Assembly (NCBI RefSeq): GCF_048403405.1
Contig: NZ_CP183129.1
Direction: 5' to 3' (one strand)
Length of the DNA stretch: 64,000 bases
DNA from: Escherichia coli
Lineage (GTDB): Bacteria; Pseudomonadota; Gammaproteobacteria; Enterobacterales; Enterobacteriaceae
The notes under the pieces are model-generated. The model was not told the DNA's origin. It searched no databases and saw nothing but the letters and a program-made list of their open reading frames with translations. Both the position numbers and the translations under genes were made by a program. This document shows, in pieces, positions 56,197 to 61,350 of this stretch; position 1 is the first letter of the stretch; the number at the start of each line of letters is the position of its first letter.

Positions 56197-56457
56197 ATGC
56201 CGATTCTGACGCATGAAATAAACAATTATTTTGATCAATTCGGACTTCATGATATTGCTTCAATGCCTACCACTCAGTACCGTCAGGCCCTTGCAAATGG
56301 TGGTTTACTGTGGATTGATCATCATGATTTTATTCGTAGCACGCTATCAGATGAAATCCTTGCAACAAATCAAGAGCAGGTTAATGTTTTGATTGAGCAT
56401 TTGCAGGTTTTAAGGAAAAAAATGCCACTACCTCCTAATTGGATGAGTGAGAAATGA
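56197..56457 (+). CDS. hypothetical protein
   Basis: 86 aa; AT-rich; convergent with the minus-strand cargo pair. Confidence 0.5.
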   Translation: MPILTHEINNYFDQFGLHDIASMPTTQYRQALANGGLLWIDHHDFIRSTLSDEILATNQEQVNVLIEHLQVLRKKMPLPPNWMSEK

Positions 56458-56491
56458 ATTATATGGCCTGGCTCTTTGCCAGGCCATATAC

Positions 56492-57001
56492 TCAAAGCAT
56501 TGTTAACAAGGCGGACGCACCAGCACCAACGAGACTGGCTACCGTACTATTATTTAGTAAATCCTTAAGCAAATTTTTTGCCTGAGGATCTTGTGATTGA
56601 GAAACTTTTTCAACAAGTTCAGTTATGCTGAGATTTACAATAAGATTGTTATGCTCACCGAGTTGAACCTGTGTACCGGATATGTTACCAATGTTAAATG
56701 TATTTTGGCTAGATTGTTTTGGTTTATGTTCATTAGCAGTCAGATTCTCGACTTTTAATGTAAGCATGTGAGGGTGATTAGTACCAACATTGAGTGTACC
56801 TCCTGGTAAAAATGACATATCAATTACTTTTAATATTATTTCCCCCTTCCCTAGTTTTTGAGTGATTTCATCTCCAATATTAATATCTGGTTCTTCAGTA
56901 TAAGGGATTAGCACTTTTTTTTCAGCTGAGTTTCTTTTCCCCTTGTATTCAACTCCTGCGATTGTGAATTTTTCTGGATATGCCATGACGTTAAGATCCA
57001 T
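56492..57001 (-). CDS. hypothetical cargo protein B (shared C-terminal module, hydrophobic C-terminal tail)
   Basis: 169 aa in markedly AT-rich DNA; C-terminus QNTFNIGNISGTQVQLGEHNNLIVNLSITELVEK...AKNLLKDLLNNSTVASLVGAGASALLTML parallels the C-terminus of the upstream gene. Confidence 0.7.
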   Translation of the reverse strand: MDLNVMAYPEKFTIAGVEYKGKRNSAEKKVLIPYTEEPDINIGDEITQKLGKGEIILKVIDMSFLPGGTLNVGTNHPHMLTLKVENLTANEHKPKQSSQNTFNIGNISGTQVQLGEHNNLIVNLSITELVEKVSQSQDPQAKNLLKDLLNNSTVASLVGAGASALLTML

Positions 57002-57030
57002 TATGTTGCTCCTCGTGATCGCTTTTGCGT

Positions 57031-57807
57031 TTAACTAGTAGATTTGAAAGTGTATTTTGTCTGTGTGTTAAGGTTTGATATTAGAGCTTCATAGTTTTCT
57101 TTACTCAGTAAGTTTTTTGAGTAGGCCTTCTTAAGAAGGTTTTTTGAGAGAGTAATAATTTCTTTTTCACCAGTTGATGCAATTTTTGAGAAGAACTCAG
57201 AGAGCTCTTGTATATTAATATTGTTATTTGTACCAAGTTGTACGTATTGGCTATTTACAGTAGCTATGTTGAATATGTTTTGTTTTGGATGCGTTTTTTT
57301 TAGCTTTTCAATTTCAGCATGTTCTATGATTTTTTGAGAGATACTTTCAATATAACCACTAACGTCTTTTTTTTCTGGGAAGGAAAACCCATCACCTCTT
57401 AATATTTTATCTGTTTCGGCCATTTCATAGTAAAGCCTGCGAATCATCACAAGTAATAGTAATTTAGCCTCCTCGATTGACTCCTCTATTGAGAATTGAC
57501 ATTCAATTGCTAACGCGGAGGTCTGCTCTAAAACAATTTCTGAGTTATTTTCAATGTAAGGATTGATAAAACCATTCCAAAAAATTTGAACGGGAGTACC
57601 TTTAAATGCCAAACCTTGATAGCATATTTCTGTTCCATCATATGCAGTAACTTTCATGGGGGGGCCTGCATTGAAAAATCGCCATCTATGAATCAGTTTG
57701 GTTAATCTTTCGTCAATCTCCCGAACTAATTTATAAGTCCTTTTGAACAATGGGGATGGTCGCATCCCAGGAACAGCAAGAATTTCTTTTGTCACTTGAA
57801 TCTCCAT
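57031..57807 (-). CDS. hypothetical cargo protein A (shared C-terminal module)
   Basis: 258 aa uninterrupted ORF in AT-rich DNA (unlikely by chance); 29 bp upstream of protein B on the same strand; C-terminus QNIFNIATVNSQYVQLGTNNNINIQELSEFF...SKNLLKKAY. Confidence 0.7.
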   Translation of the reverse strand: MEIQVTKEILAVPGMRPSPLFKRTYKLVREIDERLTKLIHRWRFFNAGPPMKVTAYDGTEICYQGLAFKGTPVQIFWNGFINPYIENNSEIVLEQTSALAIECQFSIEESIEEAKLLLLVMIRRLYYEMAETDKILRGDGFSFPEKKDVSGYIESISQKIIEHAEIEKLKKTHPKQNIFNIATVNSQYVQLGTNNNINIQELSEFFSKIASTGEKEIITLSKNLLKKAYSKNLLSKENYEALISNLNTQTKYTFKSTS

Positions 57808-58054
57808 AGTTTATCAGCATTTTTGTAAATTATTTGTGTGTTAACATTCAAGACTGTTCGTAACAAAAATACCTTATTTACATCAATTTTTTGATCCATA
57901 TCTTAAATAGTGGCACTCAGACGTGAGCCGCCACTGTTGCCGTCCGATCCCCTGCGCGATGCCGGGTTGATCTGCGAGATGCCGAGAGTGTCGGGCGGCG
58001 CTCCCTCCGTGTTGGTTTCACGTCCTGAATCTTAACCAATACGAGAAAACCTTC

Positions 58055-59840: not shown

Positions 59841-61055
59841 ATGTGGTGGCCTTTTAGTCGTAAAAAAAGCGAGCAGCGTAACCTGTCCATTGATGATTTT
59901 CTGGCGCTGTCCGGCGTACCGAATACCGGATCCGGAGAATATGTTTCTGCCGGGACGGCTGAATCATTGCCTGCAGTGATGAATGCGGTTTCTGTCATCG
60001 CTGAGGCGGTGGCCACGATGCCGTGTTATCTGTATCTGGTACGTAATGACAAGGGCAGGGAGGCGCGGGAATGGCTGGACAGTCACCCGGTAGATATTCT
60101 GCTGAATGAGCAGCCTAATTCGTGCCAGACACCTTACCAGTTTAAACGCACAATGATGCGTCACTGCCTGCTGAACGGTAACGCCTATGCGGTTATTGAG
60201 TGGGGGCAGGACGGGCAGCCAAAATCACTTCATCCTTATGCGCCGGGGTGTGTTGTACCGGAACGCACAGGCGCACACAAATACCGCTATACCATCACCG
60301 AACCCTATACAGGAACGGTGCGCACGTATTTACAGGAAGAAGTTCTGCATCTCCGCTATGCCTCGGATGATGGCTTTCTGGGGCGCTCCCCCGTCACGAT
60401 TTGCCGTGAGGCACTTGGGCTTGGCCTTGCTCAACAGCGCCACGGAGCCAGCATTATGAAAGATGGCATGATGGCGGCAGGGATTATCACGTCAGGCGAA
60501 TGGCTGGACGGCGTGAAAGGTAAACAGGCATTGGATGCTCTGGAACGCTACAAGGGGGCGAAAAATGCCGGAAAAACGCCAATCCTTGAAGGGGGCATGG
60601 ATTACAGGCAACTGGGAATGAGTAACCAGGATGCGGAATGGCTGGCCTCCCGTCGCTTCTCCATTGAAGACATCGCCCGCATGTTCAACGTATCGCCTAT
60701 TTTTCTGCAGGAATACAGCAACAGCACCTACAGCAATTTCAGCGAGGCAAGCCGCGCGTTTCTGACCATGACAATGCGCCCGTGGCTGGCGAACTTCGAA
60801 CAGCAAATCAAGGCCGCTTTGCTGGTGGCTTCTCCCGTACCTGGTACCCGTTATCTGGTTGAGTTTGATTCAGCCGATTTATTACGCGCCACACCCACCG
60901 AACGTTATGCCACGTATGAGAAAGGGATTAAGAACGGGATCATGAATCCGAACGAAGCCCGTGAGCGTGAGGGTATGCCGCCGCGTGAAGGTGGTGATGA
61001 GTTCAGCCAGGCATGGAAACAGACTGTGGAAATTAAAGGGAGAAAAGATGAGTGA
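59841..61055 (+). CDS. portal protein (HK97 family)
   Basis: ORF 59751-61055; start at Met 59841 directly after protease stop; ~404 aa with portal-like central region. Confidence 0.8.
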   Translation: MWWPFSRKKSEQRNLSIDDFLALSGVPNTGSGEYVSAGTAESLPAVMNAVSVIAEAVATMPCYLYLVRNDKGREAREWLDSHPVDILLNEQPNSCQTPYQFKRTMMRHCLLNGNAYAVIEWGQDGQPKSLHPYAPGCVVPERTGAHKYRYTITEPYTGTVRTYLQEEVLHLRYASDDGFLGRSPVTICREALGLGLAQQRHGASIMKDGMMAAGIITSGEWLDGVKGKQALDALERYKGAKNAGKTPILEGGMDYRQLGMSNQDAEWLASRRFSIEDIARMFNVSPIFLQEYSNSTYSNFSEASRAFLTMTMRPWLANFEQQIKAALLVASPVPGTRYLVEFDSADLLRATPTERYATYEKGIKNGIMNPNEAREREGMPPREGGDEFSQAWKQTVEIKGRKDE

Positions 61056-61350
61056 AGCCAGAATTACACCTGATGAAGTCAGGGCACATCTTCGACTTGA
61101 TGATGATTTATCCGGTGAAGGCGAACTTCTGAAAATGTATACCGATGCGGCGCTGGAAGCCTGCCAGAAGCATATCGGGAAACGTTTTGAAGACGGGCTG
61201 GAATTTACCCCGGCAATGCGTGTTGGTTGCCTGATGTACATCGCTTTCCTGTACGAGAACCGGGAAGCGGTTTCACCAGTGGAGCACTCGGAACTGCCTA
61301 TGGCTATTTCTGCGCTCTGGTCAGTTTATCGTGACGTAGGGGTGTACTGA
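61048..61350 (+). CDS. head-tail connector (gp6-like) protein
   Basis: ORF 60961-61350; start at MSEARITPDEVRAHLRLDDDLSGEGELLKMYTDAALEACQKHIGKRFE... overlapping portal stop; ~100 aa. Confidence 0.7.
   Translation: MSEARITPDEVRAHLRLDDDLSGEGELLKMYTDAALEACQKHIGKRFEDGLEFTPAMRVGCLMYIAFLYENREAVSPVEHSELPMAISALWSVYRDVGVY

What the first reader, a model, noticed from the sequence alone, without database searches (positions are those of the whole stretch)
56492..57807. AT-rich two-gene cargo cassette with a shared C-terminal module inside the satellite: candidate undescribed accessory/anti-phage system
Two co-directional minus-strand genes (258 aa and 169 aa, 29 bp apart) lie in DNA far more AT-rich than the rest of the island, between the replication origin and the capsid operon, where satellites and PICIs usually carry accessory or defence cargo. 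The two proteins have unrelated N-terminal regions but an alignable C-terminal module (A: KQNIFNIATVNSQYVQLGTNNNINIQELSEFF...SKNLLKK; B: QNTFNIGNISGTQVQLGEHNNLIVNLSITELVEK...AKNLLKD). Protein B ends in a hydrophobic Gly/Ala-rich tail (STVASLVGAGASALLTML) that could be membrane-inserting. I recognise no NTPase, nuclease, protease or toxin-antitoxin motif, so the function is unassigned.
Basis: partly seen in the sequence, partly recalled or inferred. Interest (0 to 1): 0.85.

Follow-up and report, generated by a model that had tools for sequence, protein, structure and literature searches.

The report
RHIM-like death-module pair in phage satellite
Two unannotated genes carried as optional cargo by an E. 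coli phage satellite share a C-terminal module whose conserved core looks like the RHIM amyloid motif of animal necroptosis followed by a greasy tail, so they are a strong candidate for a new polymerisation-triggered anti-phage suicide system.

Summary
Two co-directional minus-strand genes (A 57031-57795/57807; B 56492-57001), 29 bp apart, lie in 33-39% GC DNA between the origin iterons and the capsid operon of a capsid-forming PICI in E. coli. They form one transcription unit. The slot is variable: of 107 genomes with a >=95% identical capsid gene, 19 carry A+B; in four islands inspected it held B alone (two) or nothing (two). The C-terminal similarity is real homology. A ~70-aa module sits at the extreme C-terminus of 123 cluster representatives, fused to about 20 unrelated N-terminal regions. 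No Pfam, NCBIfam or PADLOC family matches A or B. The module's conserved core is RHIM-like: the strict (V/I)Q(V/I/L/C)G..N pattern occurs in 56/86 members (0.1 expected by chance), and one member matches Pfam RHIM exactly there (E 2e-5). Two helices and a marginally hydrophobic Gly/Ala tail follow. B is the constant element, found alone in satellites and next to AbiJ- or BstA-type genes. A keeps a hydrophobic tail only where B is absent. Best model, unproven: an abortive-infection module in which sensing triggers motif polymerisation and membrane damage, with tail-less A signalling through B. It is a new variant of amyloid-signalling defence (Bab/Agp).

The parts
57031..57795 (-). Gene A (WP_000159505). 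254 aa from GTG 57795; the alternative ATG at 57807 gives 258 aa. The stop codon is 57031-57033.
   Evidence: ORF list; RefSeq annotation; most homologues start MTKEIL, and a GGAG lies 7 nt upstream of the GTG. 24 homologous clusters were found.
57292..57795 (-). A N-terminal domain (about aa 1-168): long-helix bundle with a beta-hairpin and many invariant residues (W38, D53-G54, E98-C99, R120, E127, D129, G134, G136). Proposed sensor or binding domain.
57205..57279 (-). A RHIM-like motif (about aa 173-197: NIFNIATVNSQYVQLGTNNNINIQE), with core tetrad VQLG followed by xxN.
   Evidence: AF2 pLDDT is below 50 here.
57034..57204 (-). A C-terminal helices with a degraded, polar tail (...SKNLLSKENYEALISNLNTQTKYTFKSTS). 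This is homologous to B's helices and tail, but the hydrophobicity has been lost (best 17-mer +14.4).
56492..57001 (-). Gene B (WP_000365446), 169 aa. It matches phrog_5789 over its full length and is the constant element of the cassette.
   Evidence: E=6e-69; 181 clusters with E<=0.001, about 168 aa, mostly Gammaproteobacteria.
56708..57001 (-). B N-terminal beta-barrel domain (aa 1-98). Its closest folds are phage neck proteins (head-closure, stopper, adaptor), with PilZ-like and split barrels close behind. Proposed sensor.
56630..56704 (-). B RHIM-like motif (aa 100-124: QNTFNIGNISGTQVQLGEHNNLIVN). It has the F-x-I first strand, flanking glycines, core tetrad VQLG and xxN.
   Evidence: Pfam RHIM matches the same alignment columns in member P0262 (E 2e-5). 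AF2 pLDDT is below 50.
56549..56629 (-). B helical linker (aa 125-151: ...SITELVEKVSQSQDPQAKNLLKDLLNN), two short helices.
   Evidence: AF2 helices 126-135 and 139-150; D138, A141, K142, L145 and N151 are invariant.
56495..56548 (-). B hydrophobic Gly/Ala tail (aa 152-169: STVASLVGAGASALLTML). Proposed membrane-inserting effector helix.
   Evidence: G159 and G161 are invariant; AF2 helix 152-168; Hessa-type sum +1.7, family mean +1.8.
57009..57012 (-). GGAG ribosome-binding site 7 nt upstream of B's ATG, within a 29-bp A-B spacer that has no terminator.
   Evidence: Sequence read; no terminator-like site lies between the genes.
56460..56490 (-). Intrinsic-terminator hairpin (13-bp stem, 7 G-C pairs, then a T-rich run) directly after B's stop codon. 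It also faces the convergent 86-aa ORF.
57808..57910 (-). Upstream region of the cassette (putative promoter). 57821-57910 is shared with the B-only island of SMS-3-5 but not with empty-slot islands, whose similarity starts at 57910.
   Evidence: blastn boundaries. The simple consensus scan found no sigma-70 match on the minus strand here, so the promoter is inferred only.

Best explanation
The cassette is optional cargo in the immune hotspot of a capsid-forming PICI. It encodes two members of an unannotated protein superfamily. The superfamily is defined by a ~70-aa C-terminal module: a RHIM-like beta motif (F-N-I...G..V-Q-[ILV]-G-x-x-N), then two short helices, then a marginally hydrophobic Gly/Ala tail. 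My proposed mechanism is as follows. The variable N-terminal domain is a sensor for a phage-derived cue. Sensing releases or clusters the RHIM-like motif, which polymerises in a templated, amyloid-type way. Polymerisation lines up many C-terminal tails, which insert into and damage the inner membrane, so the infected cell dies before phage release (abortive infection). B is a complete sensor-effector unit. A is a second sensor that has lost its own tail and acts by seeding B through the shared motif, which widens what the locus can detect. Shown here: the anatomy, the homology of the module, its modular spread, the RHIM-type sequence pattern, the variable-cargo status, the conserved A-to-B order, and the complementary pattern of tails. 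Inferred: the anti-phage role, polymerisation, membrane action, and cross-talk from A to B.
For: Cargo status. The slot is empty, B-only, A-only or A+B in otherwise related islands. 19 genomes carry A+B, against 107 with a >=95% identical capsid gene. The DNA is AT-rich. The literature calls this region an expected immune-system site.

Defence context of relatives. Neighbours include AbiJ/Abi_C (E 2.6e-15) and PDC-S60 (E 2e-30), and BstA with YoeB/Phd. One relative sits at the Rz-terminase moron site of a lambdoid phage.

Module. 123 representatives were found, always with the module at the extreme C-terminus and with about 20 N-terminal groups unrelated by BLAST.

RHIM-like core. G17 and N20 are invariant, and N5, I6 and Q15 are >=90% conserved. 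The strict published tetrad plus xxN occurs in 56/86 members, against 0.135 expected after shuffling; VQVG and VQIG are commonest and IQIG occurs 7 times (tetrad definition from 10.64898/2026.02.19.706818). RHIM is the only Pfam family hit recurrently (4/86 at E<=1e-3). P0262 matches RHIM model positions 2-19 of 22 at E 2e-5, on the same alignment columns as the A and B motifs. The motif region is rich in N, S, I, G, V and Q and has AF2 pLDDT below 50 in both monomer models.

Coupling of A and B. The A-to-B order is kept down to 49% identity of A, across different replication modules. The pair is a single transcription unit. A has a B-grade hydrophobic tail (+1.5 and +1.9) in the two satellite slots that lack B (L020, L015), and a degraded tail (+4 to +15) in the loci where B is present or inferred from shared contigs.

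Precedent. Adjacent E. coli genes that share an amyloid motif form an Abi system, Bab/Agp (10.1101/2024.11.07.622273).
Against: There is no functional data of any kind. The window's A and B give no Pfam RHIM hit, even at E<=10. The module profile finds no RIPK chain among PDB sequences at E<=10; its top hits are chance SDR loops. The loop between the first strand and the tetrad is 2 residues longer than in RIPK1 or RIPK3. Unlike every described amyloid-signalling pair, the motif is internal in both proteins and the whole 70-aa module is homologous, so sharing it may reflect common descent rather than signalling. Cognate A/B motifs are only marginally more alike than non-cognate ones (36.5% vs 32.9%, p about 0.025, n=8), a difference that shared ancestry could explain, and five of those eight pairings were inferred from equal contig lengths rather than read. 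The tail is only marginally hydrophobic (+1.7), so it could be a buried helix of a soluble bundle. The tail-complementarity rule rests on few loci (2 A-only satellite slots against 8 A+B loci), and P0214, which lacks B, has an intermediate tail (+6.4). B's neck-protein-like fold has no sequence support.
Confidence: 0.4

Rival explanations
1. A and B are two independent single-gene cargo units of the same superfamily that simply sit in tandem. Each works, or has decayed, on its own, and there is no cross-talk. A's polar tail may mean that A is a decaying or differently acting paralogue.
For: B is autonomous in most contexts. A-type proteins with an intact tail also stand alone. Hotspots often stack unrelated systems. 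Cognate motif matching is weak.
Against: The A-to-B order and the short spacer are conserved down to 49% identity of A, in different genera and with different replication modules. The pair is a single operon with one terminator. A's N-domain and motif remain strongly conserved (45 invariant columns), so A is under selection even without a tail. Tail loss in A correlates with the presence of B.
Confidence: 0.2
2. The proteins are non-lethal, membrane-anchored factors for superinfection exclusion or helper interference. The tail is a constitutive anchor and the conserved N/Q/G motif is an ordinary oligomerisation strand, not an amyloid switch. The N-terminal domains bind and block phage components; for example, B's neck-protein-like barrel could cap phage heads.
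For: The tail is C-terminal, as in a tail-anchor. B's N-domain is closest in fold to head-closure, stopper and adaptor proteins. Satellites commonly interfere with helper assembly (established knowledge). The RHIM signal is weak for the window proteins themselves.
Against: The tail is only marginally hydrophobic, which is weak for a constitutive anchor. B also occurs in chromosomal islands with no satellite or phage genes nearby. The motif, not the tail, is the most conserved element, and it fits the RHIM tetrad far beyond chance. The neck-like fold has no sequence support, and PilZ-like or split barrels score nearly as well.
Confidence: 0.2
3. A is a negative regulator of B. It would be a tail-less decoy that caps or sequesters B's motif, as viral RHIM proteins block RIPK3. 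This would keep B silent in the lysogen or during the satellite's own induction. It is a toxin/antitoxin-like arrangement.
For: The order, with the tail-less partner upstream and the effector downstream, resembles antitoxin-toxin operons. The two proteins share an interaction motif. Viral RHIM decoys are an established precedent (cited).
Against: B is found without A in most genomes (56 of 75 E. coli genomes with B-like DNA, and many other taxa), so it needs no antidote. A-type proteins with intact tails exist alone, which implies that A's N-domain normally drives an effector rather than restraining one.
Confidence: 0.12
4. A and B are core structural or regulatory components of the satellite life cycle, for example head completion, packaging control or lysis.
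For: The genes lie next to the capsid operon. B's N-domain has a neck-protein-like fold. This island has one connector gene fewer than CEA106S-type islands.
Against: Islands with 97.5-98.9% identical capsid genes lack both genes. The genes are on the opposite strand, in AT-rich DNA. B occurs outside satellites. Only 3 of 50,697 phage records encode a B homologue.
Confidence: 0.03

Closest known systems
Bab/Agp amyloid-signalling Abi system of E. coli ECOR25 (BASS11 motif; Ibarlosa et al., bioRxiv 10.1101/2024.11.07.622273)
   Same: Both consist of two adjacent E. coli genes on a mobile element or defence hotspot, whose products share a short N/Q/G/aliphatic motif. In both, one partner carries a hydrophobic helix thought to attack the membrane. 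The proposed logic is the same: a sensor seeds an effector by templating.
   Different: Here there is no Bell/'Babybell' domain and no TPR-GreA/B-C-PIN sensor. The motif is internal in both proteins rather than at the C-terminus of the effector and the N-terminus of the sensor. The hydrophobic helix is C-terminal, about 30 aa after the motif, rather than N-terminal. B combines sensor, motif and effector in one 169-aa chain. From the residues cited in the paper (I87-G-S-V90, Q92, D99, N100), the spacing of BASS11 differs.
RHIM (PF12721) of RIPK1, RIPK3, ZBP1, TRIF and viral M45/ICP6, and the RHIM-like BASS3 and fungal PP motifs
   Same: The core tetrad (V/I)-Q-(V/I/L/C)-G is followed by an Asn-containing turn (xxN here; G461-D462-N463 in RIPK3). 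An upstream aromatic/aliphatic-x-Ile strand is present (F-N-I here, against Y531-x-I533 in RIPK1 and V450-x-I452 in RIPK3). Glycines flank the central strand. One superfamily member matches the Pfam model over positions 2-19 of 22 at E 2e-5.
   Different: The loop before the tetrad is 2 residues longer. The window's A and B do not reach any Pfam RHIM score. No kinase, Bell/HeLo or NLR partner is present. BASS3 was reported in multicellular Actinobacteria and Cyanobacteria, with NLR/Bell architectures rare or absent in Proteobacteria (10.1101/2020.01.06.895854). Amyloid formation is untested here.
Defence proteins that kill through a transmembrane effector (for example the TM effectors of CBASS, Pycsar and retrons); established knowledge, not tested here
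   Same: Both have a variable sensor or signalling part coupled to a short hydrophobic effector. Both are encoded on mobile elements and defence islands.
   Different: There is no nucleotide-signal domain and no PADLOC match. The hydrophobic segment is a single marginal Gly/Ala helix at the very C-terminus, preceded by a polymerisation-type motif.
Accessory immune cargo of PICIs and cf-PICIs (the variable regions flanking the packaging operon)
   Same: The cassette sits at the same position, directly upstream of and divergent from the capsid operon, and shows presence/absence polymorphism among near-identical islands.
   Different: The genes match none of the catalogued systems available here. 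B also occurs outside satellites.

Membership tests
RHIM / RHIM-like amyloid motif (PF12721) | Core tetrad (V/I)-Q-(V/I/L/C)-G (definition from 10.64898/2026.02.19.706818) | tested here: met
   A and B both have VQLG followed by xxN. 56/86 superfamily representatives meet the strict pattern, against 0.135 expected after shuffling.
RHIM / RHIM-like amyloid motif (PF12721) | Significant match to the Pfam RHIM profile | tested here: inconclusive
   The window's A and B give no hit even at E<=10. Among relatives, 4/86 hit at E<=1e-3. P0262 matches at E 2e-5 over model positions 2-19 of 22, on the same alignment columns. The module profile finds no RIPK chain in the PDB.
RHIM / RHIM-like amyloid motif (PF12721) | Upstream aliphatic pair (Y/V-x-I) and glycines flanking the central strand | tested here: inconclusive
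   F-N-I and G...G are present and conserved (N5 and I6 >=90%), but the spacing to the tetrad is 2 residues longer than in RIPK1 or RIPK3 (positions).
RHIM / RHIM-like amyloid motif (PF12721) | Forms cross-beta fibrils and heteromeric assemblies | not testable with these tools
   The only indirect evidence is AF2 monomer pLDDT below 50 over the motif and its N/S/I/G/V/Q-rich composition.
Amyloid-signalling gene pairs (fungal FASS, bacterial BASS1-11, Bab/Agp) | Adjacent genes whose products share a short motif | tested here: met
   A and B are 29 bp apart and share the motif. The pairing is conserved in at least 3 sequenced loci, plus 5 inferred from shared contigs.
Amyloid-signalling gene pairs (fungal FASS, bacterial BASS1-11, Bab/Agp) | Motif at the C-terminus of the effector and the N-terminus of the sensor | tested here: not met
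   The motif is internal in both proteins, about 45-60 residues from the C-terminus, and the whole ~70-aa module is homologous.
Amyloid-signalling gene pairs (fungal FASS, bacterial BASS1-11, Bab/Agp) | Effector with a Bell/HeLo/Hell-type domain; sensor an NLR (NB-ARC/NACHT) or TGP protein | tested here: not met
   No Pfam or PADLOC hit. A folds as a generic helical bundle and B as a beta-barrel.
Amyloid-signalling gene pairs (fungal FASS, bacterial BASS1-11, Bab/Agp) | Cognate motifs more alike than non-cognate ones | tested here: inconclusive
   36.5% vs 32.9% identity, permutation p about 0.025, n=8. The result is confounded by shared ancestry, and five of the eight pairings were inferred from equal contig lengths.
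cf-PICI variable (immune) hotspot cargo | Sits in the variable region flanking the packaging operon, with presence/absence polymorphism among related islands | tested here: met
   literature statement.
cf-PICI variable (immune) hotspot cargo | Confers anti-phage protection | not testable with these tools
   The accessions were not found in the literature searched or in the DefensePredictor supplements.
Catalogued defence systems (PADLOC-DB v2) | HMM match to a system component | tested here: not met
   No families matched A, B or 10 other superfamily members.
Phage head-closure / stopper / adaptor proteins | Sequence or profile similarity, and a position inside the packaging operon | tested here: not met
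Type II toxin-antitoxin pair | The toxin requires its cognate antitoxin, so the genes occur obligatorily together | tested here: not met
   B occurs without A in most genomes and taxa.

The most novel reading that the evidence does not exclude
A and B are a bacterial RHIM-type functional-amyloid death system compressed into two small proteins. B's neck-protein-like barrel docks on assembling phage heads or connectors, whose symmetry nucleates the RHIM-like motif. The growing fibril lines up the Gly/Ala tails into a membrane lesion. A, which has lost its tail, is a second sensor that cross-seeds B, as RIPK1 does RIPK3 or NWD2 does HET-S. This would place the necroptosis-type RHIM switch in Enterobacteria and their phage satellites, as a portable ~70-aa module attached to about 20 kinds of sensor.
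Probability: 0.22. Interest if true: 0.9.

Novelty: new variant of a known kind. Interest (0 to 1): 0.74.

Why it matters
If the model holds, it matters in three ways.

1. It would extend amyloid-type immune signalling. So far this is known in bacteria from one experimentally studied E. coli pair (Bab/Agp) and from NLR/Bell pairs of filamentous bacteria. The extension would be to a compact, widespread, modular family in Gammaproteobacteria and their satellites, built on a motif that matches the RHIM core of animal necroptosis.

2. It would give a ~70-aa "polymerise-and-puncture" module. The about 20 alternative N-terminal domains attached to it would then form a ready catalogue of small phage sensors.

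3. The natural series of slot states (A alone with a tail, A without a tail plus B, B alone) is a genetic experiment on how a sensor becomes dependent on a partner effector.

More practically, the result adds a candidate defence family that current annotation tools miss, and it fills a slot of cf-PICIs that the literature only "expects" to hold immune systems.

Tried and rejected
**Family libraries.** PADLOC, NCBIfam and Pfam gave nothing for A, B or the 86-aa ORF. PHROGs gave only unknown-function families.

**B's N-domain.**
- Homology to head-closure or connector proteins is rejected at the sequence level.
- The Foldseek search of BFVD was uninformative.
- I found no RxxxR motif on reading the sequence, which argues against PilZ; this rests on my recollection of the PilZ signature.

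**RHIM membership.** The module profile against PDB sequences finds no RIPK chain and only chance SDR loops. I therefore describe the motif as RHIM-like, not as a RHIM family member.

**BASS11.** I could not align to it, because its sequence is not in the held text and no supplements are held.

**Literature.**
- Searching for the accessions and for phrog_5789 found nothing.
- The DefensePredictor supplements do not list these proteins.
- The Fillol-Salom 2022 Cell paper is not held.

**Other readings considered.**
- A toxin-antitoxin reading is rejected because B is usually alone.
- A structural-component reading is rejected because near-identical islands lack the genes.
- The consensus scan found no sigma-70 promoter on the minus strand upstream of A, so the promoter remains unassigned.
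Full report
**1. What is there**

The window is E. coli chromosome. An island of roughly 14 kb between yhdJ and fis has the layout of a capsid-forming PICI: integrase, HTH/AlpA-type regulator, Icd-like protein, DUF4222, a primase, and then HK97-type capsid, protease, portal, connector, HNH, TerS and TerL.

Right after the primase, the 33% GC stretch 55824-56048 carries five direct and four inverted copies of ACTGTTCACC.

A conserved 86-aa ORF follows (56197-56457, +; phrog_1957). After it, on the minus strand, come B (56492-57001, 169 aa) and A (57031-57807, 258 aa), exactly as described. RefSeq starts A at GTG 57795, giving 254 aa. Most homologues begin MTKEIL, and a GGAG lies 7 nt upstream of that GTG, so I take it as the likelier start.

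GC is 0.33-0.39 across the cassette, against 0.50-0.56 on either side.

The 29-bp spacer holds a GGAG for B and no terminator. A 13-bp-stem hairpin terminator follows B's stop codon (56490-56460). A-B is therefore a single transcription unit that converges on the 86-aa ORF.

**2. Is it variable cargo?**

Yes. The capsid gene is >=95% identical in 107 of 5,426 complete E. coli genomes, but the whole cassette occurs in only 19.

| Island | State of the slot |
|---|---|
| KSC9, CEA106S (capsid 97.5-98.9% identical) | no gene between the small core ORF and the capsid gene |
| SMS-3-5, KFu015 | B-type gene alone |
| Another E. coli cf-PICI type | B alone (65% identity) |
| Metagenomic islands L020, L015 | A-type gene alone |

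DNA shared with the empty-slot islands starts at 57910. Similarity to the B-only SMS-3-5 island starts at 57821, so the same upstream region appears to serve A-B here and B alone there.

The cf-PICI literature describes the regions before and after the packaging operon as variable and "expected to encode immune systems" (10.1101/2025.02.11.637232).

**3. The shared module is true homology and defines a superfamily**

Pairwise BLASTP gives E=1e-6 over 76 residues.

B matches phrog_5789 over its full length (E=6e-69). A matches only positions 89-150 of that profile.

Family B is large (181 clusters with E<=0.001) and very uniform in length, about 168 aa. It is spread across Enterobacterales, Shewanella, Aeromonas, Alteromonas and Marinomonas, and includes one Thermodesulfobacteriota MAG. 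Family A is small, with 24 clusters.

The A-family alignment shows a gradient. P0141 and P0187 end in ...LLENSTVASLVGAGASALLGLL, the complete B-type C-terminus. The window's A ends in a polar ...SKNLLSKENYEALISNLNTQTKYTFKSTS.

I built a profile of the module alone (A3) and searched it exhaustively against 1.84 billion cluster representatives. It found 123 proteins at E<=1e-3. Apart from two long repeat proteins, the module is at the extreme C-terminus in every one.

The regions upstream of the module fall into about 20 groups with no BLAST similarity to each other. There are 34 with a B-type beta domain, 5 with an A-type helical domain, a Zn-ribbon-like one, and several other helical or beta types.

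No member tested matches PADLOC. A and B match nothing in Pfam or NCBIfam.

**4. Anatomy of the module**

The order is as follows:
- a conserved beta-type motif: xxTFNIGsvSGxqVQ[IVL]GxxNxxxxNi
- a helix: i.eLvekia.S
- a D..AK turn
- a helix: s.Lk.LLeN
- the tail: sTVasiiGAGasaLlgLL

The only invariant module positions are G17 and N20. N5, I6 and Q15 are >=90% conserved. So the motif, not the tail, is the most constrained part.

AF2 models have a mean pLDDT of about 70.
- **B:** a confident beta-barrel (residues 10-86), a low-confidence stretch (pLDDT below 50) over the motif, and three helices (126-135, 139-150, 152-168).
- **A:** a long-helix bundle with a hairpin, then the same low-confidence motif and three helices.

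The family mean is +1.8. That is marginal for spontaneous membrane insertion.

**5. The motif is RHIM-like**

I scanned module sequences individually against Pfam. RHIM (PF12721) was the only family hit recurrently: 4 of 86 members at E<=1e-3 and 7 at E<=0.1.

Member P0262 matches RHIM model positions 2-19 of 22 at residues 106-123 (PVININNSQGIQIGDNNV), with E 2e-5 and 24.4 bits. In the superfamily alignment these residues occupy the same columns as B's FNIGNISGTQVQLGEHNN and A's FNIATVNSQYVQLGTNNN.

A published deep-mutagenesis study gives the RHIM core tetrad as (V/I)-Q-(V/I/L/C)-G (10.64898/2026.02.19.706818). It also gives the key residues: Y531, I533 and I539-Q-I-G542 in RIPK1, and V450, I452, S456, G457, V458-Q-V-G461, D462 and N463 in RIPK3.

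The strict tetrad followed by xxN occurs in 56 of 86 representatives, against 0.135 expected after shuffling. That includes 34/36 of family B and 6/22 of family A. Both window proteins carry VQLG. The commonest tetrads are VQVG (RIPK3's own) and VQIG, and IQIG (RIPK1's) occurs 7 times.

The upstream F-N-I corresponds to Y/V-x-I, but the intervening loop is two residues longer.

Two results count against simple membership. The window proteins do not hit Pfam RHIM at all. The module profile retrieves no RIPK chain from PDB sequences. I therefore call the motif RHIM-like, and I treat amyloid behaviour as inference.

**6. How A and B relate**

The A-to-B order, with a short spacer, is kept in the same slot for A homologues at 59% identity (Yersinia-type island, L017) and at 49% (L016). 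Those islands have different replication modules.

Tail hydrophobicity is complementary between A and B.
- In the two cf-PICI slots where A stands alone, A's tail is as hydrophobic as B's (+1.5 and +1.9). These are L020, followed by the phrog_1957-type ORF and a primase, and L015, followed directly by a primase 81% identical to the window's.
- In the loci where B is present or inferred from shared contigs, A's best 17-mer scores +4.0 to +15. The window's A scores +14.4.

So each locus keeps at least one hydrophobic tail, while A's N-domain and motif stay strongly conserved (45 invariant columns). This is what one would expect if tail-less A acts through B.

The sample is small. P0214, which is not in a satellite and has no B, has an intermediate tail (+6.4).

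Cognate A/B motifs are only slightly more alike than non-cognate ones (36.5% vs 32.9%, p about 0.025, n=8). Shared ancestry could produce that, and five of the eight pairings were inferred from equal contig lengths, so the test is inconclusive.

**7. Context of relatives**
- In Aeromonas-type contigs, B directly follows an Abi_C protein that matches AbiJ (E 2.6e-15).
- In Shewanella, B follows a PDC-S60-like protein (E 2e-30) and precedes a small protein containing RNNLFHG.
- A helical-N-domain member, P0162, lies beside a BstA-type gene (KilA-N + BstA_C) and a YoeB/Phd pair.
- In a lambdoid phage, a B-like gene sits between Rz and HNH/TerS, a classic moron site.
- Only 3 of 50,697 phage records encode a B homologue, so it is not a standard phage structural gene.
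- B-like DNA occurs in 75 of 5,426 E. coli genomes: 19 with A+B and 56 with divergent B only.

**8. N-terminal domains**

Profile comparison with a cf-PICI head-closure protein and with this island's connector gives no signal. PDB sequence search and BFVD add nothing. The idea that B senses phage neck assembly is attractive, but it is only a lead.

A's N-domain has no informative structural or sequence match.

**9. Mechanism proposed, and comparison with what is known**

The closest described system is Bab/Agp of E. coli ECOR25. There, two adjacent genes share the BASS11 amyloid motif. Phage T5 infection makes Agp convert Bab, which then relocalises to the cell periphery, and the cell dies (10.1101/2024.11.07.622273).

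BASS3 motifs in filamentous bacteria are RHIM-like and pair NLRs with Bell-domain effectors (10.1101/2020.01.06.895854).

The cassette shares the hallmark of adjacent genes with a common N/Q/G/aliphatic motif and one hydrophobic effector helix. It fails the other defining features:
- The motif is internal, not terminal.
- There is no Bell/HeLo domain.
- There is no NLR or TGP sensor.
- The whole 70-aa module, not just the motif, is homologous.

I therefore do not file the pair under BASS or RHIM. I propose that it works like them: a sensor domain, then exposure or clustering of the RHIM-like motif, then templated polymerisation, then an array of Gly/Ala tails, then membrane damage (Abi). B would be a self-contained unit, and A a tail-less co-sensor that seeds B.

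| Claim | Confidence |
|---|---|
| Cargo of a conflict/defence type | about 0.65 |
| Polymerisation switch | about 0.4 |
| A-to-B cross-talk | about 0.3 |
| Full model | 0.4 |

The rivals are independent tandem units, non-lethal membrane-anchored exclusion or interference, A as a decoy inhibitor, and a structural role. They are weighed in the rival-explanations section.

**10. Verdict**

The finding is a previously unannotated, modular superfamily with a RHIM-like core, sitting in a satellite immune hotspot.

I rate it a new variant of a known kind, amyloid-signalling or membrane-effector Abi. Interest is high because a specialist would not expect a RHIM-type tetrad module to be widespread in Enterobacteria, and because the hypothesis can be tested directly with a handful of constructs.

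Noticed in passing
window 55824-56048: Five direct and four inverted copies of ACTGTTCACC lie in 33% GC DNA directly downstream of the primase gene. They are probably the satellite's replication-origin iterons.
   Followed up: partly
window 56197-56457 (+): An 86-aa ORF (phrog_1957, unknown function) is a conserved core gene bordering the cargo slot in several cf-PICI types (43-57% identity in L017, L020 and L002). It converges on gene B and shares the hairpin terminator 56460-56490.
   Followed up: partly
window 61048-61350 versus L013 8507-8845: This island has a single connector gene between portal and HNH. The CEA106S-type island, whose capsid gene is 97.5% identical, carries an extra 'head closure' gene. 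This fits the reported swapping of adaptor and connector genes among cf-PICIs.
   Followed up: no
window 52333-53379 (+): This 348-aa ORF is probably an artefactual extension. RefSeq annotates only the Icd-like gene at its 3' end (53176-53379) and a YlcI/YnfO gene on the opposite strand (52674-52979).
   Followed up: no
L006 6655-7494 and 8667-9146 (Shewanella algae): The B homologue is flanked by a PDC-S60-like protein (PADLOC E 2e-30) and by a 159-aa protein containing RNNLFHG, which may be a HEPN-type Rx4H motif. The locus may be a small uncharacterised defence island.
   Followed up: partly
L021 2678-5271 and L022 1319-3912: A module-bearing protein with a different N-terminal beta domain (P0150) lies directly downstream of a Cpn10 (GroES) gene and a 551-aa gene that may be GroEL. 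This context is not obviously defence-related.
   Followed up: no
L026 (GenBank PQ569648, Klebsiella phage P12620-1, 97.5-106 kb): The end of this 106-kb 'phage' record has gene sizes and orientations like a cf-PICI segment: three minus-strand genes sized like capsid, protease and portal, a plus-strand B homologue, and a 2.1-kb minus-strand gene in the primase position. All five are annotated only as hypothetical. The record may be a chimeric assembly or hold co-packaged satellite DNA.
   Followed up: no
L025 3980-4486 (Escherichia phage vB_EcoM-689R6): A divergent B homologue (33% identity) sits between the lysis gene Rz and the HNH/TerS genes of a lambdoid phage, a typical moron or defence insertion site.
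   Followed up: partly
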